NCBI GenBank assembly: GCA_041550555.1
Contig: JBFEOO010000005.1
Location: 14,017 to 78,016 of the forward strand
Origin: Arenicellales bacterium
GTDB lineage: Bacteria > Pseudomonadota > Gammaproteobacteria > Arenicellales > JBFEOO01
DNA length: 64,000 nucleotides
Direction: 5' to 3'
Part shown: in pieces, positions 1 to 30,628 of the stretch
How positions within the stretch are numbered: the first letter of the stretch is position 1
Layout: each line of letters begins with the position of its first letter
Program-made: the position numbers and the translations under genes
Notes under the pieces: generated by a model
What the model was told of the DNA's origin: nothing
The model's database searches: none
Seen by the model: only the letters and a program-made list of their open reading frames with translations

Positions 1-71
1 ACGACCGCGTGCGAAACCCACTTCTCAACCGCGGCCCTCAGGGGAGATAATGGGCAGCGGGGGGGGCTTCC

Positions 72-5044: not shown

Positions 5045-5194
5045 GACATGTGTCCTCGGGTACCGGCGCCTCGGCAACCATAGCGCGATGCAGCGGCCGA
5101 GTCGACCTGCAGCGGCACCGCGCACCCGTCGCCAATCAACCCGGGGACACGGCGCGCAGCCCGGCCACGGCGAGCGCACTCGGCCGGAGCCAGC

Positions 5195-5228
5195 AAAAAA
5201 ACGGCCGCCCCACCGACCGGGGCGGCCG
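5195..5228 (-). terminator. Rho-independent terminator after the substrate-binding protein gene
   Basis: On the minus strand a perfect 10-bp GC stem (CGGCCGCCCC / GGGGCGGCCG, + strand 5202-5211 and 5219-5228) with a 7-nt loop is followed by a run of 7 U (+ strand A-run 5195-5201). It lies about 25 nt after the stop at 5254. Confidence 0.8.
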
Positions 5229-5253
5229 CTGCGGAAGATCTAGACGCTACGCG

Positions 5254-6524: not shown

Positions 6525-8549
6525 TCAGGCGCCCCCCGCACGCCGACTTCCGCGGCGCCTCGACCCCGGCCGAGATACGCCGCCGGTGAGGGGCAGACTC
6601 ACGACCCGGCCGAGTCTCGGGTACCTCTCGCGCGCGTGCGGGATGGCCATCGCATCGACGAAGTGCGCTTGGAAACGGGGCTCCACCGCCGTCTCCACCT
6701 TCTCCACGGTGCGCACCGTTCGTTCGATCTCGGTGCGGGCCCTGCGATCGAGCAGTGCGATGCGTGCGCCGGTCCCCGCGGCGTTGCCCGCCGCGGTCAC
6801 GTGCTCGAGCTCGCAGTCCGGTATCATGCCGAGAATCATCGCGTACTTGACGTCGATATGGCTGCCGAAGGCCCCGGCGAGCCGAATCCGATCGACCGCT
6901 TCGACGCCGAGCCGATCCATCAGCAGCCGCACCCCCGCGTGCAGCGCCGCCTTCGCGAGCTGGATGGCGCGCACGTCGTTCTGCGTGATGCGTATGGGAA
7001 TCTCGCCGCCATGCACGTGATAGCAGAACGTGCGCCCATCGGCCGCGATCCGGGGCGTGCGCCGGGCGAGGTCGCCGTTGATGACACCGGCGCTGCTGAT
7101 GATGCCCGTGAGGTACATCTCGGCGATCGCCTCGACGATACCCGACCCGCAGATGCCGGTAACACCGCTCGCCGCGACGGCGTCTTCGAAGCCCGCCTCG
7201 TTCGACCAGAGCTCGCAGCCGATGACTTTGAAGCGCGGCTGCAGCGTTTCGGCGTCGATGCGCAGCCGTTCGATCGCCCCGGGCGCCGCCCGCTGACCGC
7301 AGCTGATCTGAGCACCTTCGAAGGCGGGCCCCGTGGGGCTCGACGCCGCCAGCAGCCGGTTACGGTTGCCGAGAACGATCTCCGCATTGGTGCCAACGTC
7401 GACGAGCAGGGTGATCTCGTCCCGCAGATAGGGCGCCTCGGAGAGCAACACGCCTGCGGTATCCGCGCCGACGTGACCGGCGATGCAGGGAAGCACGAAC
7501 ACGCGCGCGTTGGGGTGCAGGTTCAGATCGAGCGCTCTTGCCTCGAGAGACAGCGAGCGATCCGTCGCAAGCGCGAAAGGTGCGCCCCCAAGCTCCACGG
7601 GGCTGATGCCGAGCAGCAGGTGATGCATGATCGGATTACCGACGAAAGTCGCTTCCAGAATATCCGTGACGGCAATCCCCGCCTCCTCGGCCACCTCCTC
7701 GGCGAGACGCCGTACCGCCCCGCGCACCGCATCGGTCATCGCCCCCGCCCCGCCCGGATTCATCATCACATAGGACACCCGGCTCATCAGGTCCTCGCCA
7801 AAACGGATCTGCGGGTTCATGGCGCCCGCGGCGGCGACCACCTCGCCGCTCGCCAGATCGCACAGATGGGCGGCGATCGTCGTCGAGCCCACGTCCACGG
7901 CGAGCCCGTAGGCCTTATCGCGGAACCCGGGCCACACGGCGATGATCCGGCACGCGTCGTGCACCGCCACGGTGACCTGCCACTGCCCCTCGCGCAGCGC
8001 GTGCTGCAGACCGTGCAGCACCTGCAAATCGCAACCGAGCCCCGTCAACCCCCACTCGAACTCCAGCGCCTCCTCGAGCCGCTGCAAGTCACTTTGAGGC
8101 TCGTGCAGGGTCGGCAGCGGCACCTCGACGTAGTGGAGACGCACCGCCGGATCGAGCGTTATCTCGTGCACCTCGGCGCGCTTGCGCACCACCTGGCGAT
8201 GGACCTGGCTGTCAGGGGGGACGTCGATGACGACGTCGCCCGCGATACAGGCCGCGCAGGCGAGCCGCCGCCCGGGCGCCAGCGGCGCGCCCCGGGCATA
8301 CTCACGCTCTGTTTCGCCAACGGCGGAGAGATGCTCGACCCGCGAATCGACACCGTGCTTGGCAAAACGGCCGTAGCTCGGCAGCACCTGGCAGCGCCCG
8401 CACAGACCGCGACCCCCGCACACCGAATCGACGTCGACGCCCAGCGAGCGAGCCGCCTGCAGCACGGACGTTCCGATCCGCACCCGGCCGCGCCGACCCG
8501 ACGGCGTGAACACCACCAGCGCGTCGCTTTGCTCTTGCTCGCCGCTCAC
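6525..8549 (-). CDS. RACo-like reductive activator of corrinoid proteins (N-terminal 2Fe-2S ferredoxin + ASKHA/DUF4445 ATPase)
   Basis: The N-terminus reads VVFTPSGRRGRV...CGGRGLCGRCQV, a plant-type ferredoxin Cys pattern. This is followed by a long ASKHA-like body (LAVDVGSTT, DVGTNAEIV). The start is uncertain: GTG at 8549 is chosen, and the ATG at 8726 would overlap the upstream gene by 109 nt. Confidence 0.8.
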   Translation of the reverse strand: MSGEQEQSDALVVFTPSGRRGRVRIGTSVLQAARSLGVDVDSVCGGRGLCGRCQVLPSYGRFAKHGVDSRVEHLSAVGETEREYARGAPLAPGRRLACAACIAGDVVIDVPPDSQVHRQVVRKRAEVHEITLDPAVRLHYVEVPLPTLHEPQSDLQRLEEALEFEWGLTGLGCDLQVLHGLQHALREGQWQVTVAVHDACRIIAVWPGFRDKAYGLAVDVGSTTIAAHLCDLASGEVVAAAGAMNPQIRFGEDLMSRVSYVMMNPGGAGAMTDAVRGAVRRLAEEVAEEAGIAVTDILEATFVGNPIMHHLLLGISPVELGGAPFALATDRSLSLEARALDLNLHPNARVFVLPCIAGHVGADTAGVLLSEAPYLRDEITLLVDVGTNAEIVLGNRNRLLAASSPTGPAFEGAQISCGQRAAPGAIERLRIDAETLQPRFKVIGCELWSNEAGFEDAVAASGVTGICGSGIVEAIAEMYLTGIISSAGVINGDLARRTPRIAADGRTFCYHVHGGEIPIRITQNDVRAIQLAKAALHAGVRLLMDRLGVEAVDRIRLAGAFGSHIDVKYAMILGMIPDCELEHVTAAGNAAGTGARIALLDRRARTEIERTVRTVEKVETAVEPRFQAHFVDAMAIPHARERYPRLGRVVSLPLTGGVSRPGSRRRGSRRAGGA

Positions 8550-8617
8550 GGGACTGGCTGCTCGAAACAGGGTTGCCGCCGCTCGCTCGTCACGGCGCGG
8601 GCCGGCGCCAACGCGCC

Positions 8618-9418
8618 TCAGTCGGCGCTCGGCCGGCGCCGGCGTCCACGCCGCTGGCGCCGCCCCGAGTCCTGCTCGGCGCCCGCCAGCGGCGGCTCGC
8701 GGAAGCCGGCGATCCAGCGTCGACATTCCGGGTCGTTGCCGGCCATCACGTCGGCGCCCATCACCGCCTGCACCAGCTCGGCATGCAGCGGATTGGTGAT
8801 CGCCGATGTCAGTCCGGCCCCGATCGCCATCGAAAGGAACGCCGCGTTGAGACCGTTGCGGTTCGGCAGGCCGAAGCTCACGTTCGACGCGCCGCAGGTG
8901 GTGTTGACCTTGAGCTCGTCGCGCAGCCGGCGAATGAGGTGAAAAACCTGCTTGCCGGCACTGTTGATGGCGCCTATCGGCATCACCAGGGGATCGACCA
9001 CGACATCGGCCCGGGCGATACCGTGGTCCTGCGCCCGCTCCACGATGCGCCGCGCCACCTCGAAGCGCACATCGGGGTCCTCCGAGATGCCGGTCTCGTC
9101 GTTGGAGATCGCCACCACGGCGGCGCCGTGACGCTTGACCAAGGGCAGCACGGTTTCGAGCCTCTCCTCTTCGCCCGTCACCGAGTTGACCAGCGCCTTG
9201 CCCTGATACACCGCGAGCCCGGCCTCCAGGGCGGCCACGATCGACGAGTCGATCGACAGCGGCACGTCGGTGACCGACTGCACGAGCTGCACGGCTTCAG
9301 CGAGGATGCGGGGCTCATCCGCCAGGGGAATTCCGGCATTCACGTCGAGCATGTGTGCGCCGGCCGCAACCTGCGCCAGCGCGTCCGCCTCGACCCGAGC
9401 GTAGTCGCCCGCCGCCAT
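8618..9418 (-). CDS. methyl-THF:corrinoid methyltransferase (pterin-binding, MtrH/AcsE-like)
   Basis: Pterin-binding TIM-barrel motifs are present (MLDVNAG, SIDSS, ALVNSV, TTCGASNVSFGLP). The first ATG is at 9418, but the conserved N-terminal FCIIGERINPTGRK is encoded in frame upstream (see findings), so the true 5' end probably lies between 9480 and 9550. Confidence 0.8.
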   Translation of the reverse strand: MAAGDYARVEADALAQVAAGAHMLDVNAGIPLADEPRILAEAVQLVQSVTDVPLSIDSSIVAALEAGLAVYQGKALVNSVTGEEERLETVLPLVKRHGAAVVAISNDETGISEDPDVRFEVARRIVERAQDHGIARADVVVDPLVMPIGAINSAGKQVFHLIRRLRDELKVNTTCGASNVSFGLPNRNGLNAAFLSMAIGAGLTSAITNPLHAELVQAVMGADVMAGNDPECRRWIAGFREPPLAGAEQDSGRRQRRGRRRRPSAD

Positions 9419-9531
9419 CTCCGCGGCGAGAACCTTGCGCCCGGTCGGATTGATGCGCTCGCCTATGATGCAGAATGGCCGGTCGAAACCGATGACGACC
9501 TGCTTGACCGCGGAGCTGACGATCGTGTTGG

Positions 9532-10548
9532 TTATGACACTGCCCTCAATACGTCCGGCTCACCGGCGTCTTGCGGATGCCACGGAACCCGGCCCTGCAG
9601 CACACCCGACGCGTCGATGATCTCGGCGACCGTTTCCTCTTGGCGGTACGCCATGACGTGCACGCCGTGAACGCCCCCGATCTCGCGGACCTGCTGTATG
9701 AGCTCGGTGCAGAGCTTCATGCCCTCGAGCTTGGGCTTCTGCGCTCCCTCGAGCCTGCGCACCACCTCGTCGGGGATGTGAACGCCCGGCACGTTCTCGC
9801 GCATCCAGCGCGCAGCGCGGGGAGAAGCCAGCGGACCCACCCCGACCAGCACGAACACGCGTTCGTGCAGGCCCATGTCGCGAACGCGCTCCATGTAGCG
9901 CTCAAGCATCGCAATATCGAAACAGTACTGCGTCTGCACGAACTGGGCCCCGGCCTCGATCTTTTTCCTGAGCCTGAGCGGACGGTACTCCAGCGGCGGT
10001 GCGAAGGGATTCGCCGCCGCGCCAAGAAACACGCGCGGCGGCGTCGTCAGCGTTCTGCCGCTCAGAAAACGACCCTCGTCACGCATGCGTCGCACGGCGC
10101 CGAGCAGCGACATGCAGTCGAGGTCGAACACTGGCATGGCGTCGGGATGATCCCCTGTCTGCACGCCGTCTCCGGTCAGACACAGAATGTTGGCGACACC
10201 CATGGCGCTGGCGCCCAGCACGTCACCCTGCATGGCGATACGGTTGCGATCCCGGCACGACATCTGCGCGACCATCGAGTAGCCGCGCCGCGCCAGCAAC
10301 GCGCACACGCCGATGCTCGACATGTGGCAGTTAGCGCCCGAGCCGTCGGTCGCGTTCATGGCGTCGACGTAGCCGTCGAAGATGCGCGCGCGCAGGTAGA
10401 CGTCCTCGGGGTCGGCCGAGTCCGGCGGCGAGAGCTCGGTGGTCACCGCGAAATGGCCGGCGCGCAGCACGCGCTCGAGACGTCCACCCGAGCTGTGCCC
10501 GGGCAGGATCTCGAGCGGCTCGCCGCCGCTGGTGCCCTCGACCGTCAT
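9532..10548 (-). CDS. metF: methylenetetrahydrofolate reductase, MetF-type (copy 1)
   Basis: 338 aa with MTHFR family motifs FAVTTELSPP, MSCRDRNRIAMQGDVLGA and LCLTGD. It has an ATGA start/stop overlap with the upstream MetV-like gene. Confidence 0.85.
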   Translation of the reverse strand: MTVEGTSGGEPLEILPGHSSGGRLERVLRAGHFAVTTELSPPDSADPEDVYLRARIFDGYVDAMNATDGSGANCHMSSIGVCALLARRGYSMVAQMSCRDRNRIAMQGDVLGASAMGVANILCLTGDGVQTGDHPDAMPVFDLDCMSLLGAVRRMRDEGRFLSGRTLTTPPRVFLGAAANPFAPPLEYRPLRLRKKIEAGAQFVQTQYCFDIAMLERYMERVRDMGLHERVFVLVGVGPLASPRAARWMRENVPGVHIPDEVVRRLEGAQKPKLEGMKLCTELIQQVREIGGVHGVHVMAYRQEETVAEIIDASGVLQGRVPWHPQDAGEPDVLRAVS

Positions 10549-11012
10549 CGCCCCGCGTCCGCGCCGCGTGGGAGCGCCGACTTCTCGCAAACGACGCGCA
10601 GCCACGAGGAGGCGCCGAGCAAACTCGTGTCGAGCGGTCGCTGCACCGGGTCTTCAGGGGAGCGCATGCGTGCGCGACCCTCGGCCGCCGCCACCCACAC
10701 GCAGCGCATGTGTCGATCGACCTCGCAGCTGCCGTCGTCGCGCACGCCGCCGCAGGGGCCGTTGCGAATTCGCTTCGGACAATTCATCGGGCACGACATG
10801 CCGGTCGAGTTGAGCACGCACTGCCCGCACATGCGGCAGTCGAACAGAAATCCCTTGACGGTCCTTTCCACCGCGCGCACCGGCCGCTCGAGTCGCCGGT
10901 AGCCCAGAGAGCGCCACAGCGGATGCAGGGCGACCATCACCGGCTCGAGGACCCCATACAAGGCCTCGAGTCCACGCGCGTGTCGCACCGACCATTGACG
11001 CGCCGCGTACAT
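10545..11012 (-). CDS. MTHFR C-terminal-domain protein (MetV-like Cys-rich subunit)
   Basis: 155 aa with the Cys cluster CRMCGQCVLNSTGMSCPMNCPKRIRNGPCGG, characteristic of the small partner of acetogen-type MetF. Confidence 0.8.
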   Translation of the reverse strand: MYAARQWSVRHARGLEALYGVLEPVMVALHPLWRSLGYRRLERPVRAVERTVKGFLFDCRMCGQCVLNSTGMSCPMNCPKRIRNGPCGGVRDDGSCEVDRHMRCVWVAAAEGRARMRSPEDPVQRPLDTSLLGASSWLRVVCEKSALPRGADAGR

Positions 11013-11015
11013 GGG

Positions 11016-11315
11016 CTACTCGCTCCTCATGCCCTTGGCCTTGATCAGCAGCTCGAGATCGCCGTCGGAGAATGCCTCCTCGAGCTGCGCCGCACATGCC
11101 GCCGCTGCGGCTTCGAGGTCGTCACCGCACTCGCTCTGCTGCCGACGCCACTCGCTGAGATACGCTTCGCTGCTGCCCTTGCCGGCGCGCATCGCGGCGC
11201 GGTCGATTGCCTTGTGGAAGCGATCGGAGAGCGGCACCTTGGCCGACCGGCGCCCGCTCTTGGCGATGACCTGTGCCGGAATATCACGCCAGTACACGGT
11301 GATCAGCTTGGCCAT
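11016..11315 (-). CDS. small conserved protein of the so-called virulence-factor domain family
   Basis: The N-terminus MAKLITVYWRDIPAQVIAK matches my recollection of this family, which co-occurs with MetFV/corrinoid clusters. Its function is unknown. Confidence 0.6.
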   Translation of the reverse strand: MAKLITVYWRDIPAQVIAKSGRRSAKVPLSDRFHKAIDRAAMRAGKGSSEAYLSEWRRQQSECGDDLEAAAAACAAQLEEAFSDGDLELLIKAKGMRSE

Positions 11316-11946
11316 CCGTGAGACACCTCTGCGCATGCTCTAACGCGGCGTGCAGTCCACCGTAACCCGTGTGACGATGCTCGAAAGCCAGGTTCAGACG
11401 CGCCGCCGCTTGTCTGGCGCGCTCGGCGAGCATCGCGTCGACGGTCTGGGAGAGATACACGAGCTTGCGGTAGTTGCCGAAATACAGCGGCTCGAGCTCG
11501 GGATGGCGGTCGAGTCCCAGCCCCTTCACGACGAGCCGCTCGAAATGTCTGGCCAGAAAATCGGTCAGGTAGAAGGTTCCCGGCTCGGCTTCGGAAAGCT
11601 CGCGAAACAGGCGCGTCCCTGCGAAGAATTCGTAGCAATGAGCGCCCGCAATCCGCTCCACGCCCTCCTGCTCCAGAACGCGATCGAGGGCACCACCGGT
11701 CCCACAGTCTGCGTAGGCCACGAAAATGTGACGGTAGCGGGTGCGCGCCGCGCAGATGGCCGCGCGCACGGCTTGCGGTATCTCCTCGGGTCTGTTGTGC
11801 AGCATCGCCGGAAGGCACTGCACCGCCACGGACTCCCAGCCGTTGGCGCGCACCAGCGCCGTGAGCTCGTGGGCGAGCGCACCGCAGGCGATCACCACAA
11901 GCCGTGATCCCTGCCGCGCTGCGTCGGTGCCGTCGGCTGCAGCCAC
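11284..11946 (-). CDS. DUF1638-family protein
   Basis: 220 aa. It contains VVIACGALAHEL and FVAYADCGTGGALD segments typical of DUF1638 proteins found beside corrinoid methyltransferase genes. Its 3' end overlaps the next gene by 32 nt. Confidence 0.7.
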   Translation of the reverse strand: MAAADGTDAARQGSRLVVIACGALAHELTALVRANGWESVAVQCLPAMLHNRPEEIPQAVRAAICAARTRYRHIFVAYADCGTGGALDRVLEQEGVERIAGAHCYEFFAGTRLFRELSEAEPGTFYLTDFLARHFERLVVKGLGLDRHPELEPLYFGNYRKLVYLSQTVDAMLAERARQAAARLNLAFEHRHTGYGGLHAALEHAQRCLTDGQADHRVLA

Positions 11947-11952
11947 GGGGAC

Positions 11953-12669
11953 TCAGGCGTGCGCCGCCGCTCGGTGCGCCGCCACCAGCTCCTTCGCGGT
12001 CTCGACAGCGACAGCTGCATCACGACAATAGGCGTCCGCCCCGATCGCTCTGCCGAACTCTTCGTTGAGCGGCGCTCCGCCAACCAAGATCACATAGTCG
12101 CCGCGGCGGCCCTGCTCGAGCAGCGTGTCGATCACGACCTTCATGTACGGCATGGTGGTGGTGAGCAGCGCCGACATGCCCAGTATCTCGGGCTTGTGCT
12201 GGTCGAGCGCTTCGAGGTAGCTCTCCACGGGATTGTTGATGCCAAGGTCGATCACCTCGAATCCGGCACCCTCCATCATCATCGCCACCAGATTCTTGCC
12301 GATGTCGTGAATGTCTCCCTTCACCGTTCCGATCACCATCTTGCCGATCGTCGGTGCGCCGGTCTCGGCAAGCAGCGGCCGCAGGATCTCCATTCCGCCC
12401 TTCATGGCGTTCGCGGCCATCAACACCTCGGGGACGAAGAGGATACCGTCGCGAAAGTCGATACCGACAATGCGCATGCCCTCGACCAGCGCGTCATTGA
12501 GGACCCTGTCCGGCGACCAGCCGCGGTCGAGCAGTATGCGCGTCCCCTCCTCGATCTCCTCCTTGAGACCGTCGTACAGATCGTCATGCATTTGTTCGAC
12601 CAACTCGTCGTCGGCGAGGCTCGACAGGTCGAGCTCCTCGCCGCTGTCGATTGGCTCCACGTTGGCCAT
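11953..12669 (-). CDS. corrinoid (B12-binding) protein, MtbC/MtgC/MetH-cap+Rossmann type
   Basis: It has the DxHxxG motif GDIHDIGKNLV, then SALLTTT and ILVGGAPLN. The N-terminal helical cap region reads LYDGLKEEIEEG. I set the start at MANVEP (12669). Confidence 0.9.
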   Translation of the reverse strand: MANVEPIDSGEELDLSSLADDELVEQMHDDLYDGLKEEIEEGTRILLDRGWSPDRVLNDALVEGMRIVGIDFRDGILFVPEVLMAANAMKGGMEILRPLLAETGAPTIGKMVIGTVKGDIHDIGKNLVAMMMEGAGFEVIDLGINNPVESYLEALDQHKPEILGMSALLTTTMPYMKVVIDTLLEQGRRGDYVILVGGAPLNEEFGRAIGADAYCRDAAVAVETAKELVAAHRAAAHA

Positions 12670-13247: not shown

Positions 13248-14126
13248 ATGGGCGATATCATCGACGGCAAGACCTTCGCAGCGAACCTGCGCCTGGACAT
13301 CGGGCGCCAGGTTGAACGACTCAAGGCCCGGCACGGGATCACGCCGGGTCTCGCCGTCGTGCTCGTCGGCGACAATCCCGCCAGCCAGGTCTACGTTCGC
13401 AGCAAGGGTAAGCAGACACAGGAAGCGGGCATGGCGTCGTTCGACCACCGGCTGCCCGCCACCGTCTCCGAGTCGGAGCTGCTGTCGCTGATCGCGCGTC
13501 TGAACCAGGACGCCGCCGTGAACGGCATTCTCGTGCAACTGCCGTTGCCGCCCCAGATCGGCGCGTCGGCCGTCATCGACGCCATCGATCCCGCCAAGGA
13601 CGTGGACGGGTTTCACGTCATCAACGTCGGCAAACTCAACACCGGTGGCGACGGCATGGTGCCGTGCACCCCGCTTGGCTGTCTGATGCTGCTCAAGGAT
13701 CGCCTGCCCGAACTCGCCGGCCTGAATGCTCTGGTGCTCGGACGCTCCAACATTGTCGGCAAGCCCATGGCGGCGCTGCTGCTCAAGGAGAGCTGCACGG
13801 TGACCGTGGCGCATTCGCGGACCCGGAACCTGGCCGAAGAGTGCCGTCGCGCTGATGTACTCGTCGCCGCCGTCGGGCGCGCGAACATGGTCAGGGGCGA
13901 TTGGATAAAGCCGGGTGCGATTGTGATCGACGTCGGGATCAACCGCATCGACGCCGGCAACGGCAAGACGCGCCTGGTCGGCGACGTCGACTTCGACAAC
14001 GCGCTGCCGGTGGCCGGTGCGATCACACCCGTCCCCGGCGGTGTCGGCCCCATGACGATCGCGTGCCTTCTCCACAACACGCTCAAAGCGGCCCGTCTCC
14101 AGCACGGCATCGAACCCGCCGGCTGA
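13248..14126 (+). CDS. folD: bifunctional 5,10-methylene-THF dehydrogenase / methenyl-THF cyclohydrolase
   Basis: The product starts [15 protein letters not shown] and contains [41 protein letters not shown] and [10 protein letters not shown]. Confidence 0.95.
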
Positions 14127-20852: not shown

Positions 20853-21363
20853 GAGGTCCCCCGTGCGGTGAAGCACTCGGCGATGCAAACCGAAAAAGCT
20901 ACGCCGACCGCTGGCTCCGGAGCAAGGGCGCCGGTCAAGCGCACGCTGTGGGCGGGCGAGCGCCGACCGTGCTCTACCCCTTGTCCGAGATTAAAAAGCG
21001 CTCATAGTGCATCAAGGTCGCGGTGGGCAATTGCTTGAGAACGGCGTCGAGGTGCGCAGCTGCGTCGCGACCGCGCCGACTCACGCACCGTCGGCTTCCA
21101 CCGCGGGGCGCGCTTGCCCACCGCCGTCGCCCGGCGTCGGCCGAGCGGCGGGCTCGGGCGATGAACGCGGGGCGGCTCGCTCGCCCGATGGACGCCCCTG
21201 TAGAATCGCTCGACCACCGTGACGCGTCCGCGGCGGACCGTCCACTCCCGACAGCGGGCGGTCGCGCGGACGCGCCGGCCTCCCGTCATGGCTAGTGGGT
21301 CGACTCGATCGCGGCAGGCGGCACCGTGGAACGAACCGAAGACCCGATCCAGGAGGCGTTGAC

Positions 21364-21759: not shown

Positions 21760-21880
21760 ACGGCCGACATCGCCAAGCCACCCGCCGTCCCCATCGTTTG
21801 TCAGCTTACCCGGCACAGGCTATAGTGGCGCCGCCGCGGTCCGGCGGCGTCGCCGCTCGCCATGGAAGGAGAACAGGCCC

Positions 21881-23837: not shown

Positions 23838-24446
23838 TCAGTCGGGGGTCTTGACGCGGTAGCCGAACTCCGTCGACGCATCGACCACCCAGCGCCAGAG
23901 ATAATCAGCGAAACTGCGCCTGACAACGATATCAAAAACGCCTTGCGCTCGATGCACCAGCAAAAGACTTGCACGAGCGAGCACCGTCTGGGCGCAGTCG
24001 CCAACGGCGAATCGGCGATCGTGCAGATCCAGCGGGCAACCTTTCGCGAGCACATCGCGCGCACGGGCCCCTTCGAGCGTGATAACACCGAGGCCGCCGC
24101 TCACGTCGGTGATCGCCACGAATGAACCGGCAATCGCCCGGTCCAGCGCATCGATGCGTTCCGTGTCCCTTTCGTACGGCGTCGTGACCAGCCACTCGTC
24201 GGGTCCAAGCCAGCACACGGTGACACCGGGGCCGCTCACCACCGTATTCGCCTGCGTCGGCAGCTCGATGCCTAGAGAGTCCCTGACCGCGCGCCGCAGC
24301 GCGGTGTCGCGGGCATCACCGCGCAGATTGTAGTGACCGAGGAAACGGCGCTCGCCGATGACGACGCCGGCCTCGCCCGCGCCGCCGGCCGCCGGCGTGC
24401 CGGCAAGATGGGCGAGCGCGCTCTCGCGGCGAATGCCGTCAGACAC
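23838..24446 (-). CDS. soxG: sarcosine oxidase subunit gamma
   Basis: 202 aa from the GTG at 24446, which overlaps the soxA stop. Its position and size match the classical soxBDAG order. Confidence 0.85.
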   Translation of the reverse strand: MSDGIRRESALAHLAGTPAAGGAGEAGVVIGERRFLGHYNLRGDARDTALRRAVRDSLGIELPTQANTVVSGPGVTVCWLGPDEWLVTTPYERDTERIDALDRAIAGSFVAITDVSGGLGVITLEGARARDVLAKGCPLDLHDRRFAVGDCAQTVLARASLLLVHRAQGVFDIVVRRSFADYLWRWVVDASTEFGYRVKTPD

Positions 24447-27444
24447 GTTGGCGCTCCCCCTGAGGGTCGTAGAACACCGGCGAGGTGATCGTCGCACGCA
24501 GCGTACGGCCGTCCATGAGCGGCGCAAAGACGGCGCCTCCCACGCGACCGCGACCGCCCTTGACAAGGGCCAGCGCGATGGAGCGCCCGAGACATGCGCT
24601 CCAGTAGCTCGAGGTGACGTGGCCGACCATGGGCACGGGCCGCTCGTCCGTCGGCTCGTTGACGAGCTGTGCGCCTTCAGGCAGCACGTCCGCCGGATTC
24701 TCGGTCAGCAATCCGACCAGCTGCTTGCGGTTCTCACGCACACAGTCGCTTCGAGACAGCGACCGCTTGCCGATGAAATCCTTGCGCTGGGACAGGATCC
24801 AGTCCATACCGAGATCGACCGGAGTAGCCGAGCCATCGGTGTCCTGACCGACTATGACGTAGCCCTTCTCCGCCCGCAGCACGTGCATGGACTCAGTGCC
24901 GTACGCCGTGATCCCGTGCGGTGCGCCGGCCTCCATCAACGCGTCCCACAGAAAACGGCCGTAGTCGGCGCAGACATTGATCTCGTAGCCAAGCTCGCCG
25001 CTGAAGCTGATGCGGAACACCCGCGCCGGCACGCCGGCCACCGTCCCTTCGCGTACCGCCATGAAGGGAAAGGCATCGCCGGAGAAATCGATGTCGTCAC
25101 ACAGTGCGGCGATCAGCTGCCGACTCTTCGGCCCTGCGATCGAGGCGACCGCCCAGTGGTCGGTCACCGACGTGAGGTACAGGCGAAGCTCCGGCCACTC
25201 CGTTTGCAGCCAGCGCTCCATCCACGCAAACACGCGGGCGGCACCGCCCGTCGTCGTCGTCATGAAGAAGTGATCCGGCCCGAGGCGGGACGTCACCCCG
25301 TCGTCCATGACCATACCGTCTTCGCCGAGCATGACGCCGTAGCGGCAGCGCCCGATCTCCAGCCGCGACCAGCTGTTGGTGTAGATGCGGTCGAGAAACG
25401 TGGCCGCGTCGGGCCCGCGAATGTCGATCTTGCCCAGCGTGGAGGCGTCCAGTATGCCGACGCCCGCGCGCGTCGCCCTGCACTCCCGGTTGACGGCGTC
25501 CTGCATGGTCTCGCCCGAGCGTGGGTAAAACCAGGGGCGTTTCCACTGTCCGACGTTCTCGAACTCGGCGCCGTGCGCTATGTGCCATGCGTGCATGGGC
25601 GTCTGCCGCACCGGATCGAAGCGCTCGGCGCCGAGATCGCGCCCGGCGAGCGCAGCGAACGGCACCGGCGTGTAGGGTGGGCGAAAGGTAGTCGTGCCGA
25701 TCTCGGCCAGGTCCCGGCCCAGTGTCCGCGCCAGGATCGCCATGCCGTTGATGTTTCCGAGCTTGCCCTGGTCGGTACCGAACCCGAGCGCCGTGTAGCG
25801 CTTGACGTGCTCGATCGAACGGTAGCCCTCGCGTGCCGCGAGACGGATGTCGGCCGCAGTGGTGTCGTTCTGCAGGTCGACGAACTGTTTGGGTCGGCCG
25901 GCGCCAGCGCCCGTCGGCACCCACCACAGCGGCTGCAGAGGCTGCTCGTCGTGCTCCGCAACCTCCGGCGGCGCAGCAGCAGGGTCGTTGAAACCGGCCG
26001 CCTGCGCAGCGTCGATACCCGCGCGGTGACCCTCGCGCAGGCAAGCGCCCAGCGCAAAAGTGCCGTTGCACGCCCCGGCCGAGCGCTCCGCCTGCACGGG
26101 CGCGCCGGGGACGAAGCATACCCTGTCCGCGTCGAACCGCGGCCGACCCCCGGACTGCGCGTGAAGATGCACTGCCGGACTCCACCCACCTGCTACCGCC
26201 AGCAGGTCGCACGCGAGCGACCCCGCCGCACCCAGGCAGTGCGACAGATCCGGCGCCACGCGCTCGACGGCGACGCTCGACAGCGAACGCCGGCCGATCG
26301 CCCTGGTGACGACGCTGCCGGTGATGATGTCGACGCCCCGCGCGCGCACGCGCTCGGGCAGTGCGCCGGTCAGCTCGGGCCGCGGGTCCACGACGGCCGA
26401 GACGGCCAGCCCGGCGTCGAGCAGGTCGATCGCCGTTCGGTAGGCGGCGTCGTTGTTGGTGAAGAGCACGGCGCGGCGCCCCGGCGCGACGCCATAGCGC
26501 TTCAGGTAGGTCGACACGGCGGAGGCCAGCATGACGCCCGGCGTGTCGTTGTCGGTAAACACGAGCGGCCGCTCGATAGCGCCGGTAGCGAGGACCACCT
26601 CGTGCGCCCGCACATGCCACAGGCGGTGGCGCGGCAACGCGGCGGGAGCGTGTGCCAAATGGTCCGTCACCCGCTCGAGCACCGCGAGCAGGTTGTGATC
26701 GTAGTAGCCAAACAACGTGCTGCGGCGCAGCAGACGCACCTCGCCCATGCCGCCGAGCTCGTCGACGACCTCGGCGACCCAATCCATGGCGGGTCGGCCG
26801 CCGATCGGGTCGTCGCTCCGCAGCAGGCTGCCGCCGAACTCGGACTGCTCGTCCACCACCATCACGCGCGCACCCGCTTGGGCAGCCGCGCGGGCGGCCG
26901 CCAGCCCGGCCGCACCGGCGCCCACCACGAGCACGTCACAGTGGGCGTAAACCCGCTCGTAGCGATCGACATCGCCCGCAGTGGGGGCTCTGCCCAACCC
27001 AGCGGCCTTACGGATCAGCCGCTCGTAGTGCATCCAGAATCCCGGCGGCCACATGAAGGTCTTGTAGTAGAAACCCGCCGGCAGCACAGCCGAGAGCAAC
27101 CCGCTGGCGGCGAAGACGTCGCGCTCGACGCTCGGCCACCCGCCGACACTGCGCACCTGCAGTCCCTCGTAGAGCTCGATCTGGGTCGCCAGCGCGTTGG
27201 GCACCGTCGCCGCGCCGTCGCCGAGCTGCATCACGGCGTTGGGCTCGTCGGCGCCACTGCCGATGATGCCCCGCGGGCGGTGGTACTTGATGCTGCGGGC
27301 CACGGTGCGCACACCGTTGGCGAGCAGCGCGGCGGCGACGGTGTCGCCGGCGTAGCCCTGCAGGCGCCGACCGTTGAAGCTGAAAACGAGCGGTGTGTCG
27401 CGGTCGATGCGACCGCCGATTGGCAGTCTATTGTGCTGCGTCAC
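24439..27444 (-). CDS. soxA: sarcosine oxidase subunit alpha
   Basis: 1001 aa from the GTG at 27444 (GTGA overlap with the soxD stop). The N-terminal NAD/FAD fold motif is DVLVVGAGAAGLAAA, and the C-terminal half is GcvT-like and folate-binding. Confidence 0.95.
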   Translation of the reverse strand: MTQHNRLPIGGRIDRDTPLVFSFNGRRLQGYAGDTVAAALLANGVRTVARSIKYHRPRGIIGSGADEPNAVMQLGDGAATVPNALATQIELYEGLQVRSVGGWPSVERDVFAASGLLSAVLPAGFYYKTFMWPPGFWMHYERLIRKAAGLGRAPTAGDVDRYERVYAHCDVLVVGAGAAGLAAARAAAQAGARVMVVDEQSEFGGSLLRSDDPIGGRPAMDWVAEVVDELGGMGEVRLLRRSTLFGYYDHNLLAVLERVTDHLAHAPAALPRHRLWHVRAHEVVLATGAIERPLVFTDNDTPGVMLASAVSTYLKRYGVAPGRRAVLFTNNDAAYRTAIDLLDAGLAVSAVVDPRPELTGALPERVRARGVDIITGSVVTRAIGRRSLSSVAVERVAPDLSHCLGAAGSLACDLLAVAGGWSPAVHLHAQSGGRPRFDADRVCFVPGAPVQAERSAGACNGTFALGACLREGHRAGIDAAQAAGFNDPAAAPPEVAEHDEQPLQPLWWVPTGAGAGRPKQFVDLQNDTTAADIRLAAREGYRSIEHVKRYTALGFGTDQGKLGNINGMAILARTLGRDLAEIGTTTFRPPYTPVPFAALAGRDLGAERFDPVRQTPMHAWHIAHGAEFENVGQWKRPWFYPRSGETMQDAVNRECRATRAGVGILDASTLGKIDIRGPDAATFLDRIYTNSWSRLEIGRCRYGVMLGEDGMVMDDGVTSRLGPDHFFMTTTTGGAARVFAWMERWLQTEWPELRLYLTSVTDHWAVASIAGPKSRQLIAALCDDIDFSGDAFPFMAVREGTVAGVPARVFRISFSGELGYEINVCADYGRFLWDALMEAGAPHGITAYGTESMHVLRAEKGYVIVGQDTDGSATPVDLGMDWILSQRKDFIGKRSLSRSDCVRENRKQLVGLLTENPADVLPEGAQLVNEPTDERPVPMVGHVTSSYWSACLGRSIALALVKGGRGRVGGAVFAPLMDGRTLRATITSPVFYDPQGERQRV

Positions 27445-27722
27445 TCGCCGCTCTCCGGGGCGGGCTCGCCCATTTCGTAGACGGCGCTGACGCGATAGCT
27501 CACGGTATCGCGCACGGCGTTGAACCAGCGGCGACAGCCATGGGTGTGACACCACTGCTCGAGATGCCTGCCCTTGGGATTGCTGCGCATGAACAGGTAG
27601 TCCGCCCACTCGGCATCGGAGAGCCTGCCCGGATCCTCAGGCCGTACGATGTGTGCCTCACCCCCGTAGCTGAACTCGCTCTGATCCCGATACCCGCACC
27701 AGGGACACTCGATGAGCAACAT
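27441..27722 (-). CDS. soxD: sarcosine oxidase subunit delta
   Basis: 93 aa, starting MLLIECPWCGYRDQSEFSYGGEAHIVRP with a zinc-binding Cys/His pattern. Confidence 0.95.
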   Translation of the reverse strand: MLLIECPWCGYRDQSEFSYGGEAHIVRPEDPGRLSDAEWADYLFMRSNPKGRHLEQWCHTHGCRRWFNAVRDTVSYRVSAVYEMGEPAPESGE

Positions 27723-27732
27723 GCCGCACCTC

Positions 27733-28983
27733 CTAATGCGCCACGCCTGCCGCGCCGTGTTCGTCGATCAGAGCGCCGCTGGTGAAACGCTCGAGGCTGA
27801 ACGGCGCATTGAGCGGATGCGGGGACTCGCGGGCGATCGTATGTGCAAACACCCATCCGGAACCGGGCGTGGCCTTGAAGCCGCCCGTGCCCCATCCGCA
27901 GTTGAAATACAGGCCCTTCACCGGTGTGCTACCGATGATGGGACAGGCATCGGGACACACATCGACGATGCCGCCCCACTGGCGCAGCATGCGCACCCGG
28001 CTGAAGATGGGAAACAGCTCGATTATCGCCGCCGCATTGCCTTCGATGATGGACAGGCTGCCGCGCTGCCCATAGCCGGTGTACGCGTCTATGCCTGCCC
28101 CGATCACCAGCTCACCCTTGTCGGATTGGCTGATGTAGCCGTGAACCGCGTTCGACATCAAGACGGTGTGCAGCACGGGCCGCAGCGGCTCGGAGACGAA
28201 CGCCTGCAGCGGATGGCTCTCGATCGGCAGACGCAATCCGGCCATGGCCGCGATCACGCTGCTGTGACCCGCGGCCACCACGCCCACCTTGGCGGCTTCG
28301 ATGAACCCGCGCGTCGTCTCGACGCCCGCCACGGCGCCGTTGTGACGGCGTATTCCGGTCACCTCGCAATTCTGGATGATGTCCACACCCCGGGCATCGG
28401 CGCCGCGCGCGAAGCCCCAGGCCACGGCGTCGTGTCGGGCGACGCCGCCGCGGGGCTGGTACGACGCCCCCAGGATCGGATAGCGTGCCGTCGACGAGAT
28501 GTCGATGATCGGAATCTTCTCTTTGACCTGCTGAGCCGAGAGCACCTCGCTGTCGATGCCGTTGAGCCGGTTGGCGCTCGAACGACGATAGATGTCACGC
28601 ATGTCCTGAAGCGTGTGACCGAGGTTCAACACGCCGCGCTGGCTGAACATGACGTTGTAGTTGAGATCCTGGCTCAAACCCTCCCAAAGCTTGAGCGATT
28701 TTTCGTACAGATGTGCAGCCTCGTCCCACAGGTAATTGGAGCGGACGATGGTAGTGTTGCGGCCGGTGTTGCCCCCGCCGAGCCAGCCTTTCTCGAGCAC
28801 CGCCACATCCGTGATGCCGTGCTCCTTTGCGAGATAGTACGCCGTGGCCAGGCCGTGACCACCGCCGCCTACGATGATCACCTGGTAGCGGGGCTTCGGC
28901 TCGGGGCTGCGCCACGCCTGCGGCCAGTTCTCGTGATGGCTCAACGCGTTGCGCAGCAGGCTGAAGATCGAGTACGCCTTCAT
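27733..28983 (-). CDS. soxB: sarcosine oxidase subunit beta
   Basis: 416 aa. The FAD motif is [18 protein letters not shown], and the C-terminal region is [11 protein letters not shown]. Confidence 0.95.
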
Positions 28984-29043
28984 CGCGTCGACCCCCTGCG
29001 CTGCGCCGATGACGCACGAGCCGTCACGGCACGCGGCCGGCGC

Positions 29044-30336
29044 TCAAGCGGTGTGCGCCACAGCCGGTGCCTCGCCACCGATCGAGCGATAGACCGGGAA
29101 CCGGGCGCACAGGGCCAGCACCTTTTGCCTGACCTCCTCGATCACGGCGTCGTTGTCGAGATCGTCGAGCACGTCGCACATCCAGTGCGTCAGCTCGCGC
29201 ATCTCGGCTTCAGCAAATCCGCGCGTGGTGGCGGCCGGTGAGCCGATGCGCAGCCCGCTGGTCACAAAGGGCGATCGCGGGTCGTTGGGGACGCTGTTTT
29301 TGTTGACCGTGATGTTGGCGCGGCCGAGCGCGGCGTCGGCGTCCTTGCCGGTAATGCCCTTGTCGATCAGATCGAGCAGAAACAGGTGGTTGTCGGTGCC
29401 GCCGGACACGACTTTGTAGCCGCGCGCCTGAAACACCTCGGCCATGGCGCGCGCGTTGGCAACGACCTGCTCCTGATAGCGCTTGAAGGCAGGCGCCAGC
29501 GCCTCCTTGAAGGCGACCGCCTTCGCGGCGATCACGTGCATGAGCGGGCCGCCCTGCGTCCCCGGAAACACAAGCGAGTTGAGCTTCTTGGTGATCTCGT
29601 CGTTGGTGCGCGCCAGGATGAGCCCGCCCCGCGGTCCACGCAGCGTCTTGTGGGTCGTCGTGGTGACGACGTCGGCCACGGGCACGGGATTGGGATAGAC
29701 GCCGGTGGCGACCAAACCGGCCACGTGGGCCATGTCGACGAAAAGGTAGGCGCCGACCGCATCGGCGACGCTGCGAAAGCGCTGCCAGTCCATGACACGC
29801 GAGTAGGCGGAGAAGCCCGCCACGATCATGCGCGGGCGATGGGCTTCGGCAAGCCGCTCGACCTCGGCGTAATCCACTTCGCCGCTCGCCTCGTCGAGGC
29901 CATACTGCACGGCATGATAGAGCTTGCCGGAGAAGTTCACCTTGGCACCGTGGGTGAGGTGTCCGCCGTCGGCGAGGCTCATGCCGAGAATGGTCTCGCC
30001 GGGCTCCACCAGCGCCATGTAGACCGCCGCATTGGCCTGAGAACCCGAGTGCGGCTGGACGTTCGCGTAGTCGGCGCCAAACAGCTGCTTGGCGCGGTCG
30101 ATCGCCAGCTGCTCAGCGATGTCGACGTACTCGCAGCCCCCGTAGTAGCGCTTCCCGGGATAGCCCTCGGCGTATTTGTTGGTCAGCACCGAGCCCTGTG
30201 CCTCGAGCACCCGGGGGCTCGTGTAGTTCTCCGACGCAATCAGCTCGATGTGCTCCTCCTGGCGGCGTTCCTCGGCCTGGATTGCAGCCCAGAGCTCGGG
30301 ATCGAATTCGGCGATGGTCTCGGACGTGTCAAACAT
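29044..30336 (-). CDS. glyA: serine hydroxymethyltransferase
   Basis: 430 aa with [24 protein letters not shown] and the PLP-lysine region [14 protein letters not shown]. Confidence 0.97.
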
Positions 30337-30628
30337 CAGCTGGCAACCTCCACGATAACGGCCCTTTGATAGCGGGTTCGCTCAACGATACCCGTGCGGA
30401 TTCCCCGCCCCGACCCTGACCACCTGCACGAAGCGCGCCCGTCCAGGCGCCCCAACTGCAGGCCGGCGCCGACCGCGCGCGCAGCGCGGTGCCGGGTCCT
30501 GGCCGCGAACGCCGCGAGCTTAGCGGTGATCGCGATGCACGACATGCCGGCCGACGACGCCGATTTGCCCGACCACGACGGTCCCGAGCCGGCGACAGCC
30601 CGCCTGTGCTCGGCTTGCGGACAGGACG

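What the first reader, a model, noticed from the sequence alone, without database searches (positions are those of the whole stretch)
6525..12669. Corrinoid methyl-transfer plus MetFV module with no recognisable substrate:corrinoid methyltransferase
Seven co-directional, mostly overlapping or abutting genes lie on the minus strand. They encode a B12-binding corrinoid protein (DxHxxG), DUF1638, a small 'virulence-factor domain' protein, a MetV-like Cys-rich protein, MetF-type MTHFR, an MtrH/AcsE-like methyl-THF:corrinoid methyltransferase and a RACo-like ATP-dependent reductive activator. folD is divergent from this set. That is a complete downstream half of a methyl-X to corrinoid to CH3-THF to CH2-THF to CHO-THF pathway. 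The component that defines the substrate is absent from the cluster and from the whole 64-kb window: there is no MttB-superfamily, MtaB-, MtvB- or CmuA-type MT1. Either MT1 is encoded elsewhere, or one of the unknowns here (DUF1638 or the ~100-aa protein) supplies that activity. An acetogen-style MetFV pair in an organism that also encodes O2-dependent sarcosine oxidase is itself unusual.
Basis: partly seen in the sequence, partly recalled or inferred. Interest (0 to 1): 0.65.

Follow-up and report, generated by a model that had tools for sequence, protein, structure and literature searches.

The report
Shared core of B12 methyl-transfer system
This seven-gene operon is the substrate-independent core of a vitamin-B12 methyl-transfer system already described in aerobic bacteria, which removes methyl groups from glycine betaine and also makes methionine; the missing substrate-specific enzyme is normally encoded elsewhere, so the gap is ordinary.

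Summary
Seven co-directional minus-strand genes (6525-12669) encode a corrinoid protein, DUF1638, a PF13769 'virulence factor' protein, MetV-like, MTHFR, a pterin-binding methyltransferase and a RACo-like activase. folD is divergent. No MT1 gene lies in the window or in about 16 kb of same-species flanks.

It is not a new pathway. The set matches the MtgC/MtgD/RamA-like/DUF1638/MetF2 core described in Phaeobacter inhibens (2018) and Ruegeria pomeroyi (2025). That core serves trans-encoded MttB-family MT1 enzymes (MtgB) for glycine betaine demethylation and a homocysteine-binding subunit (MtgE) for methionine synthesis.

- The window proteins are 53-81% identical to the Sinorhizobium meliloti locus cited in the 2025 paper.
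- The same gene order occurs in 42 of 44 well-flanked related loci. An MttB gene is directly upstream in 21, elsewhere within 10 kb in 13, and absent in 10.
- In Azoarcus sp. KH32C the MttB gene lies 19 kb from the cassette.
- DUF1638 and PF13769 co-occur with MttB, so they do not replace it.
- Neighbouring genes (choline transporter, betA, soxBDAG, glyA) point to choline and glycine betaine.

Verdict: new member of a known kind, low interest. The roles of DUF1638, PF13769 and MetV in aerobes remain open. The MT1 of this organism was not found.

The parts
11953..12669 (-). mtgC-type stand-alone corrinoid (cobalamin-binding) protein, 238 aa
   Evidence: Pfam B12-binding_2 plus B12-binding. DxHxxG is D119/H121/G124, at least 95% conserved in 76 homologues. 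Best NCBIfam match is the MtgC_2 model, below its cut-off. 81% identical to the S. meliloti cobalamin-binding protein of the MtgBCDE locus.
11284..11946 (-). DUF1638 protein (220 aa; alternative GTG start at 11898 gives 204 aa). Accessory factor of the corrinoid core, probably metal-binding or redox-active.
   Evidence: PF07796. [quoted passage not shown] C21/C81/C104 are invariant and H50/H103 at least 90% conserved in diverse members. AF2 model has pLDDT 88, with no PDB fold match.
11016..11336 (-). PF13769 'virulence factor' family protein (99-106 aa), a conserved uncharacterised cassette member
   Evidence: Pfam. Present in nearly all related cassettes, and retained where metV/metF are absent. 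No conserved Cys or His. Also present in the S. meliloti and Azoarcus loci.
10545..11012 (-). metV-like Cys-rich subunit (155 aa)
   Evidence: PF12225. Eight Cys at least 95% conserved in 73 homologues. metV lies upstream of and overlaps metF, as in acetogen MetFV (PMC8515935).
9532..10548 (-). metF (MetF2-type MTHFR, 338 aa by the gene calls; the ORF extends to 10605)
   Evidence: PF02219. Gene calls in same-species contigs. 71% identical to the S. meliloti cassette MTHFR. In R. pomeroyi MetF2 is adjacent to mtgD.
8618..9535 (-). mtgD-type methyltetrahydrofolate:corrinoid methyltransferase (305 aa), with a probable ATA start overlapping the metF stop
   Evidence: PF00809, and NF005719 above its cut-off. 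Junction alignment shows ATGA in 9 relatives and ATAA here and in 4 same-species assemblies.
6525..8549 (-). RACo/RamA-like ATP-dependent reductive activase with an N-terminal [2Fe-2S] ferredoxin domain (about 674 aa; the ORF extends to 8726)
   Evidence: Fer2, RACo_linker, Raco_middle and RACo_C_ter domains. Best NCBIfam match is AcsV. The equivalent protein is PGA1_c15200 in P. inhibens.
13248..14126 (+). folD, divergent from the cassette. Oxidises CH2-THF onward.
   Evidence: Pfam and NCBIfam FolD models above cut-off. The same divergent arrangement occurs in L011, L012, L015, L039 and L069.
23838..30381 (-). Context: glyA-soxB-soxD-soxA-soxG (sarcosine oxidase plus SHMT), the last demethylation step of the betaine pathway
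   Evidence: Pfam. soxG ORF. soxA lies within 10 kb of the cassette in 11 related loci.

Best explanation
The seven genes form one operon. It encodes the substrate-independent core of a modular, cobalamin-dependent methyl-transfer system of the MtgBCD(E) / split-MetH type.

Proposed mechanism:
1. A trans-encoded MttB-superfamily MT1 (MtgB type) methylates the Co(I) corrinoid protein MtgC. Glycine betaine is the most likely substrate, given the flanking choline and betaine genes.
2. MtgD passes the methyl group to tetrahydrofolate.
3. MetF, with its Fe-S partner MetV, oxidises CH3-THF to CH2-THF.
4. The divergent FolD carries the C1 unit further.
5. The RACo-like ATPase reduces accidentally oxidised Co(II) back to Co(I), with DUF1638 probably assisting.

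The same MtgC/MtgD pair can probably run in reverse and feed a homocysteine-binding MtgE for methionine synthesis.

Shown here: gene content, gene order, homology, conservation and genomic context. Inferred: the direction of flux, the substrate, and the roles of DUF1638, PF13769 and MetV.
For: - Domain content matches the published systems one for one (against PMC5764234 and PMC12478193). These are a stand-alone corrinoid protein, a PF00809 protein, a Fer2+DUF4445/RACo activase, DUF1638, and a metF paralogue beside mtgD.
- Window proteins are 53-81% identical to the S. meliloti locus, which has the same genes plus bmt and an MttB gene. The 2025 paper cites that locus as colocalised MtgBCDE with reactivation modules.
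- In 44 related loci with at least 9 kb on both sides, 42 carry all seven genes in the same order. MttB is directly upstream in 21, elsewhere within 10 kb in 13, and absent in 10.
- Core proteins stay 74-86% (MtgC) identical, while the linked MttB genes fall into classes only 30-78% identical to one reference. This fits one core serving varied MT1s.
- Azoarcus sp. KH32C has the same MttB-less cassette island, with its MttB gene 19 kb away.
- In the plasmid database MttB occurs on 190-194 records and DUF1638 on only 10. MT1 genes are therefore commonly unlinked from the core.
- The context points to betaine. A choline ABC transporter and betA lie just left of the window. soxBDAG-glyA, folD and serA/serC lie inside it. 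Related MttB-less loci are flanked by proVW/OpuAC, GbdR-like, purU, betB and betA genes.
Against: - No MttB or PF02574 gene was found for this organism, from about 14 kb left of the window to about 2 kb right of it. Its full genome could not be searched.
- Orthology to the genetically tested R. pomeroyi and P. inhibens proteins could be checked only indirectly, through the S. meliloti locus.
- The corrinoid protein scores below the cut-offs of both NCBIfam MtgC models.
- mtgD has an ATA instead of an ATG start, so expression may be weak.
- No dimethylglycine-demethylating gene is in the window.
- The substrate assignment rests on neighbourhood alone.
Confidence: 0.75

Rival explanations
1. The cassette is only an anabolic split methionine synthase with its own MTHFR. 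MetFV reduces CH2-THF to CH3-THF, MtgD loads MtgC, and a trans-encoded MtgE methylates homocysteine. No catabolic MT1 is involved in this organism.
For: [quoted passage not shown] No MT1 gene was found in about 80 kb around the cassette. PF02574 genes lie near the cassette in 7 related loci and in S. meliloti. serA/serC/glyA/folD would also supply C1 units for anabolism.
Against: MttB is linked far more often than PF02574: 34 loci against 7. The cassette sits in choline, betaine and sarcosine catabolic islands across Alpha-, Beta- and Gammaproteobacteria. A second MTHFR paralogue without MetV (21704-22762) could serve anabolism. MetF2 was the protein most induced on N-osmolytes in R. pomeroyi.
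Confidence: 0.13
2. One of the unknowns in the cassette, DUF1638 or the PF13769 protein, is itself the substrate:corrinoid methyltransferase.
For: Ten of 44 related loci, and all betaproteobacterial ones seen, have complete betaine islands with no MttB within 10 kb. DUF1638 has an invariant Cys3/His2 constellation and no known fold match. No published function exists for either protein.
Against: Both proteins are retained in the complete cassettes whether or not an MttB gene is nearby, and 34 of the 44 loci have MttB within 10 kb, so they do not substitute for it. [quoted passage not shown] PF13769 is about 100 aa with no conserved catalytic Cys or His. The one MttB-less island that could be checked further (Azoarcus) does have MttB 19 kb away.
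Confidence: 0.03
3. The core serves a different, possibly new substrate. An example is a methylated aminophosphonate imported by the adjacent PhnS2T2U2-type transporter, or chloromethane, through an MT1 that is not of the MttB family.
For: A PhnS2/T2/U2 'putative 2-aminoethylphosphonate' ABC transporter lies 228 bp downstream on the same strand, scoring above the NCBIfam cut-offs. The 2025 paper notes multiple pfam06253 paralogues and proposes that other methylated substrates use the same core.
Against: The transporter is next to the cassette in none of 82 related loci, so the adjacency looks incidental. No phosphonate catabolic genes and no CmuA-type domain are in the window. The conserved context across taxa is choline and betaine.
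Confidence: 0.06
4. The cassette is decaying or silent in this organism, because mtgD has lost its ATG start codon.
For: ATG became ATA at the conserved start, and this is fixed in at least four independent assemblies.
Against: The reading frame is intact, with GC3 of 0.86 and a conserved N-terminus. The Shine-Dalgarno GAGGG is retained, and overlap with the metF stop allows translational coupling. All other cassette genes are intact.
Confidence: 0.03

Closest known systems
MtgBCDE of Ruegeria pomeroyi DSS-3 (Mausz et al. 2025, PMC12478193)
   Same: Stand-alone corrinoid protein MtgC, pterin-binding MtgD, RamA-like activase, DUF1638, and MetF2 beside mtgD. MT1 (MtgB, pfam06253) and MtgE are encoded away from the core. 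Aerobic host with sarcosine and dimethylglycine demethylation genes.
   Different: In R. pomeroyi the parts are scattered (SPO2160, SPO1863, SPO2041, SPO2162, SPO1862). Here they form one seven-gene operon that also holds MetV-like and PF13769 genes, which that paper does not mention. This host is a gammaproteobacterium. No MtgB or MtgE has been located for it, and sequence identity to the Ruegeria proteins could not be measured.
Three-part split methionine synthase of Phaeobacter inhibens (Price et al. 2018, PMC5764234)
   Same: PF02310/PF02607 corrinoid protein plus PF00809 protein, with Fer2+DUF4445 and DUF1638 reactivation factors. DUF1638 is encoded next to the corrinoid gene.
   Different: That system was defined by methionine auxotrophy and includes a PF02574 subunit in the same operon. 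No PF02574 gene is in this window, and the context here is catabolic (choline, sarcosine, folD).
Sinorhizobium meliloti chromosomal locus (CP090106.1, LZK74_26765-26860)
   Same: Holds the same corrinoid, DUF1638, virulence factor, MTHFR_C, MTHFR, MeTHF:cobalamin methyltransferase and ASKHA activase genes. Identity to the window proteins is 53-81%.
   Different: The S. meliloti locus also has an adjacent MttB-family gene and bmt (BHMT/MtgE), and unrelated genes interrupt it. The window cassette is compact and lacks both.
MtgB/MtgC/MtgA glycine betaine system of Desulfitobacterium hafniense and the MttB-superfamily systems of Eubacterium limosum (as summarised in PMC12478193)
   Same: The same three-component logic: MT1 to corrinoid protein to THF methyltransferase, with a RamA-type activase.
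   Different: Those are anaerobes. Their corrinoid protein belongs to a different clade according to the 2025 paper, and DUF1638, PF13769 and MetFV are not described as part of those clusters.
Chloromethane utilisation (cmuA, cmuB, metF2, folD, purU) of Methylobacterium extorquens CM4 (PMC3621897)
   Same: An aerobic corrinoid- and THF-dependent methyl oxidation route with a dedicated metF paralogue, folD and purU.
   Different: CmuA fuses the MT1 and corrinoid domains. Here the corrinoid protein stands alone, and no MtaA/URO-D-type domain exists in the window.
MetFV methylenetetrahydrofolate reductase of acetogens (Clostridium ljungdahlii, PMC8515935)
   Same: metV lies upstream of and overlaps metF. 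MetV-like protein has eight conserved Cys, enough for two [4Fe-4S] clusters.
   Different: The acetogen enzyme reduces CH2-THF using ferredoxin in strict anaerobes. Here the pair is embedded in a demethylation cassette of aerobes and presumably oxidises CH3-THF. The electron acceptor is unknown.

Membership tests
MtgBCD(E)/split-MetH modular cobalamin methyltransferase core | Stand-alone corrinoid protein with B12-binding cap and B12-binding domains and a DxHxxG motif | tested here: met
   (PF02607 plus PF02310). (D119/H121/G124 conserved).
MtgBCD(E)/split-MetH modular cobalamin methyltransferase core | Separate PF00809 pterin-binding methyl-THF:corrinoid methyltransferase (MtgD) | tested here: met
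   NF005719 at 363 bits against a cut-off of 259.
MtgBCD(E)/split-MetH modular cobalamin methyltransferase core | Ferredoxin plus DUF4445/ASKHA (RamA/RACo-like) reductive activase | tested here: met
   (Fer2, RACo_linker, Raco_middle, RACo_C_ter)..
MtgBCD(E)/split-MetH modular cobalamin methyltransferase core | DUF1638 protein co-occurring with the corrinoid protein and the activase | tested here: met
   present in all 42 complete cassettes.
MtgBCD(E)/split-MetH modular cobalamin methyltransferase core | Dedicated metF paralogue (MetF2) adjacent to mtgD | tested here: met
   A second, unlinked MTHFR lies at 21704-22762.
MtgBCD(E)/split-MetH modular cobalamin methyltransferase core | Sequence orthology to a locus named in the defining papers | tested here: met
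   53-81% identity to every component of the S. meliloti locus.
MtgBCD(E)/split-MetH modular cobalamin methyltransferase core | MttB-superfamily (pfam06253) MT1 encoded in the same genome | tested here: inconclusive
   Absent from the window and from about 14 kb left and 2 kb right of it.
MtgBCD(E)/split-MetH modular cobalamin methyltransferase core | PF02574 homocysteine-binding subunit (MtgE) in the same genome | not testable with these tools
   None in the window. A genome-wide search was not possible.
MtgBCD(E)/split-MetH modular cobalamin methyltransferase core | Genetic requirement for growth on glycine betaine and/or for methionine prototrophy | not testable with these tools
   Needs mutants. 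The organism is known only from metagenome assemblies.
NCBIfam glycine betaine-specific corrinoid protein MtgC (NF047996 / NF047995) | Score at or above the curated cut-off | tested here: not met
   203 bits against a cut-off of 370, and 167 against 310. These are the best-scoring models but are narrow 'exception' models.
Chloromethane cmu pathway | CmuA-type fusion of an MtaA-like MT1 domain with a corrinoid domain | tested here: not met
   The corrinoid protein has only B12 domains. No URO-D/MtaA-type domain is in any window ORF.
Acetogen-type MetFV MTHFR | metV (PF12225, Cys-rich) immediately upstream of and overlapping metF | tested here: met
   Compared with PMC8515935.
Acetogen-type MetFV MTHFR | FMN plus two [4Fe-4S] clusters, with ferredoxin-dependent activity | not testable with these tools
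   Only the eight conserved Cys can be shown.
Wood-Ljungdahl AcsE/CFeSP/RACo module | CFeSP subunits (AcsC/AcsD) and CODH/ACS encoded alongside | tested here: not met
   No such domains in the window. The only trace is a sub-threshold CdhD hit inside the pterin-binding protein.
Classical MetH | Single polypeptide with Hcy, pterin, B12 and AdoMet-reactivation domains | tested here: not met
   The domains are on separate proteins. MetH equivalog scores are 143-153 bits against a cut-off of 1011.

The most novel reading that the evidence does not exclude
DUF1638 (invariant Cys3/His2 site, no known fold relative), the PF13769 protein and the MetV-MetF pair may be obligatory but still uncharacterised subunits. 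They would adapt corrinoid methyl transfer and CH3-THF oxidation to aerobic life. For example, DUF1638 could be a new metal or Fe-S electron-entry module for the RACo-type activase, and MetFV a new CH3-THF-oxidising MTHFR type with an unknown acceptor. A bolder version is that, in lineages whose betaine islands never carry MttB, one of these proteins replaces the MT1.
Probability: 0.12. Interest if true: 0.6.

Novelty: new member of a known kind. Interest (0 to 1): 0.25.

Why it matters
This does not reveal a new pathway. It files a very common operon under a system published in 2018 and 2025: more than 8000 DUF1638 protein clusters and at least 534 loci in species-representative genomes.

- **For annotation.** A corrinoid, MeTHF-methyltransferase and RACo cluster without an MT1 gene in an aerobe should be read as the shared MtgC/MtgD core, not as an incomplete or orphan pathway. 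Its MttB and MtgE partners should be sought genome-wide.
- **Extension of the published picture.** Soil and sediment Gamma- and Betaproteobacteria carry the core as one compact operon. That operon always includes MetV-like and PF13769 genes, which the papers do not discuss. These genes, together with DUF1638, are the remaining unknowns worth experiments.

Tried and rejected
- **Solved structures.** No sequence relatives in the PDB for DUF1638, PF13769 or MetV.
- **Regulatory signals.** Rfam found no riboswitch in the window, and only chance hits in the 580-bp folD-mtgC intergenic region. Promoter, terminator and repeat scans were at background.
- **The source contig.** The window proteins are recorded on a contig of 97,142 nt, but no look-up returned it.
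- **Walking left.** After seeing the Azoarcus arrangement (MttB convergent with the choline SBP gene), I searched for the MT1 to the left of the window. That gave choXWV, SBP_bac_3, NUDIX, GATase, an aminotransferase, Tsp and opp genes, and no MttB.
- **Walking right.** This gave only a TPR/sulfotransferase gene.
- **A last protein search for MttB.** I considered it and rejected it. The family is so large and so evenly conserved that the top 120 hits would be unlikely to include this organism.
- **PhnS2T2U2 as a substrate clue.** Rejected as weak, because the adjacency is unique to this species.

Full report
**1. The observation**

ORF listing and a GC3-based filter show seven co-directional minus-strand genes between 6525 and 12669. 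All score above the Pfam gathering thresholds:
- a corrinoid protein (B12-binding_2 plus B12-binding)
- DUF1638
- PF13769 'Virulence_fact'
- PF12225 (MetV-type MTHFR_C)
- MTHFR
- Pterin_bind
- a RACo-type activase (Fer2, linker, middle and ASKHA C-terminal domains)

NCBIfam agrees. The pterin-binding protein exceeds the cut-off of NF005719, methyltetrahydrofolate:corrinoid methyltransferase. The corrinoid protein is closest to the MtgC_2 model, at 203 bits against a cut-off of 370. The activase is closest to AcsV.

The genes abut or overlap, judged from gene calls on same-species contigs. folD is divergent.

The window has no MT1:
- Pfam scans of all large coding-like ORFs found no PF06253, MtaB, URO-D/CmuA-type or PF02574 domain.
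- An HMM built from 59 cassette-linked MttB proteins gave a best E-value of 1.2 on the six-frame translation. A positive control gave 1.8e-277.

**2. What the literature says**

A full-text search for DUF1638 returned two decisive papers.

Price et al. 2018 (PMC5764234) studied Phaeobacter inhibens.
- It makes methionine with a three-part MetH: a PF02574 protein, a PF00809 protein and a corrinoid protein annotated MtbC.
- Two further proteins are needed: one with ferredoxin and DUF4445 domains (RamA-like), and a DUF1638 protein encoded next to the corrinoid gene.

Mausz et al. 2025 (PMC12478193) studied Ruegeria pomeroyi.
- The corrinoid protein MtgC and the pterin-binding MtgD are essential both for methionine synthesis and for glycine betaine demethylation.
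- The betaine-specific MT1 is a pfam06253 protein (MtgB), and the homocysteine-binding subunit is MtgE. Both are encoded elsewhere.
- A metF paralogue beside mtgD (MetF2) was the protein most induced on N-osmolytes.
- RamA and DUF1638 were co-induced.
- Homologues occur in marine Gamma- and Deltaproteobacteria. Genes for the later demethylation steps are often nearby, but mtgE is not.

This is the same component list as the finding. The paper mentions neither MetV nor the 'virulence factor' protein.

**3. A direct link by sequence**

The plasmid collection does hold a chromosome-sized S. meliloti record. Its annotated region carries these genes:
- bmt
- a trimethylamine methyltransferase family (MttB) gene
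- a cobalamin-binding protein
- DUF1638
- virulence factor
- an MTHFR C-terminal domain protein
- MTHFR
- methyltetrahydrofolate cobalamin methyltransferase
- an ASKHA protein

Mausz et al. describe this locus as colocalised MtgBCDE plus reactivation modules. Identity of the window proteins to it is as follows:

| Protein | Identity |
|---|---|
| MtgC | 81% |
| MetF | 71% |
| MtgD | 63% |
| MetV | 58% |
| RACo | 56% |
| DUF1638 | 54% |
| PF13769 | 53% |

I take this as orthology.

**4. How common is a cassette without MT1?**

DUF1638 homologues number more than 8000 clusters at 90% identity and 1679 clusters at 50% identity. A scan of species-representative genomes confirmed 534 relatives, and the best 80 loci were kept. 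They come from Gamma-, Beta- and Alphaproteobacteria and include Pseudomonas borbori DSM 17834.

I annotated them by tblastn. Among the 44 loci with at least 9 kb on both sides:
- 42 carry all seven genes in the same order.
- 21 have an MttB gene directly upstream on the same strand.
- 13 have an MttB gene elsewhere within 10 kb.
- 10 have no MttB gene within 10 kb.

The folD-divergent, MttB-less layout of the window recurs in L011, L012, L015, L039 and L069. One relative (L013) shows the full picture: an OpuAC transporter, a GbdR-like regulator, MTTB, then the same seven genes.

The core proteins stay highly similar, with MtgC at 74-86% identity. The linked MttB genes fall into classes only 30-78% identical to one reference. 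This fits a common core serving varied MT1 modules.

In the plasmid collection MttB genes occur on 190-194 records and DUF1638 on only 10. MT1 genes are therefore routinely unlinked from the core.

The most telling case is Azoarcus sp. KH32C pAZKH. It has the same seven-gene cassette inside a betaine island (proVW, GlxA/GbdR-like, purU, DMGDH-like plus ETF, betaine SBP) with no MttB within 12 kb. An MttB gene 80% identical to the cassette-linked one of P. borbori lies 19 kb away. It sits beside a second folD, a choline SBP, an SMR gene and betA/betB.

**5. Are DUF1638 or the small protein the MT1?**

The evidence argues against this.
- Both proteins are present whether or not MttB is adjacent.
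- DUF1638 is needed when the methyl donor is CH3-THF.
- PF13769 has no conserved Cys or His. It stays between DUF1638 and mtgD in loci that lack metV/metF (L054, L076, L077, L088). It therefore belongs with the corrinoid module.

DUF1638 has invariant C21, C81 and C104 and nearly invariant H50 and H103 across members only 41-54% identical. The AF2 model is confident (pLDDT 88) and shows two alpha/beta domains, with no PDB fold or sequence relative.

I infer a metal- or cluster-binding accessory of the reactivation step. This agrees with Price et al. but is unproven.

**6. Context and likely substrate**

Same-species contigs extend the window to the left. They carry betA (TIGR01810, above cut-off) and a choline ABC transporter, choXWV.

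Inside the window are:
- folD
- DUF1015-serC-serA
- a second MTHFR without MetV
- glyA-soxBDAG

.

Related MttB-less loci in Betaproteobacteria are flanked by proVW, OpuAC, GbdR-like, purU, betB and betA genes. soxA lies within 10 kb of the cassette in 11 related loci.

Choline and glycine betaine catabolism is therefore the most likely setting. The MT1 of this organism was not found from about 14 kb left of the window to about 2 kb right of it. Its genome could not be searched.

**7. MetFV in an aerobe**

The literature states that MetFV-type MTHFR occurs mainly in anaerobes and that metV lies upstream of metF (PMC8515935). The arrangement here is the same, and eight Cys are conserved.

Within this cassette the pair is the rule: 42 of 44 loci have it, including those of Pseudomonas isolates and S. 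meliloti. It is under-described rather than unusual. Its electron acceptor in aerobes is unknown.

Dedicated metF paralogues for CH3-THF oxidation in aerobes also have a precedent in the chloromethane pathway (PMC3621897).

**8. Verdict**

The finding is a correct reading of the genes, but it rediscovers a published system. I rate it a new member of a known kind, with interest 0.25.

The best explanation is a shared MtgC/MtgD core with RACo/DUF1638 reactivation and MetFV/FolD oxidation, served by a trans-encoded MttB-type MT1 and possibly MtgE. I hold this at about 0.75.

Rivals:

| Rival | Confidence |
|---|---|
| Methionine-synthase-only role | 0.13 |
| Another substrate or a non-MttB MT1 | 0.06 |
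| DUF1638 or PF13769 as MT1 | 0.03 |
| A silent cassette | 0.03 |

The residual novelty lies in the uncharacterised conserved members: DUF1638, PF13769, and MetV in aerobes.

Noticed in passing
window 9533-9535 (minus strand), metF/mtgD junction: mtgD has ATA where nine relatives have ATG overlapping the metF stop (ATGA became ATAA). The same base is present in four independent same-species assemblies, and the upstream GAGGG Shine-Dalgarno is kept. Automatic gene calls therefore truncate the protein to 266 aa, starting at the ATG at 9418.
   Followed up: yes
window 2221-6297 (minus strand): A PhnS2/PhnT2/PhnU2-type 'putative 2-aminoethylphosphonate' ABC transporter (NCBIfam equivalogs above cut-off) lies 228 bp downstream of the activase gene on the same strand. 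None of 82 related cassette loci has it there. No phosphonate catabolic gene was seen in the window.
   Followed up: partly
window 15266-17248 (+): A 660-aa ABC-type ATPase with partial matches to the defence ATPases AriA, Old, PtuA and GajA (PADLOC). It is inserted between a CN-hydrolase gene and the DUF1015-serC-serA genes. No partner nuclease gene was noticed.
   Followed up: partly
window 21223-22762 (+): A RidA-family gene is followed by a second MTHFR paralogue without MetV. This MTHFR is only 33-36% identical to the cassette MetF homologues of S. meliloti and Azoarcus. It may be the anabolic MetF, mirroring metF versus metF2 in R. pomeroyi.
   Followed up: partly
L017:5362-7428 and 22 other related loci; L106 15627-17681 (Azoarcus pAZKH): A hydantoinase/oxoprolinase-family protein of about 689 aa (Hydant_A_N plus Hydantoinase_A) is encoded just upstream of the cassette-linked MttB gene in 23 related loci. 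In Azoarcus it lies next to the TetR-family regulator gene beside betB. Its function in this context is unknown.
   Followed up: no
L054, L076, L077, L088 (related loci): Cassettes that lack metV and metF still keep the PF13769 gene between DUF1638 and mtgD. This suggests the small protein works with the corrinoid or activation module rather than with MetFV.
   Followed up: partly
window 11284-11946 (DUF1638): Cys21, Cys81 and Cys104 are invariant, and His50 and His103 are at least 90% conserved, in family members only 41-54% identical. The AF2 model is confident but has no PDB fold neighbour. This may be an undescribed metal or Fe-S site.
   Followed up: partly
window 51-1667 (+): A SAM-dependent methyltransferase is followed by a HAD phosphatase, between betA and the phosphonate-type transporter. 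The methyltransferase's best NCBIfam hit is the corrinoid protein-associated methyltransferase CpaM, but at 67 bits it is far below the 180-bit cut-off. Function unknown.
   Followed up: no
L104 (CP090106.1): The S. meliloti strain Ak57 record labelled 'plasmid pSymB' is 3.72 Mb long and carries chromosomal-type genes. It appears to be a mislabelled chromosome in the plasmid database.
   Followed up: no
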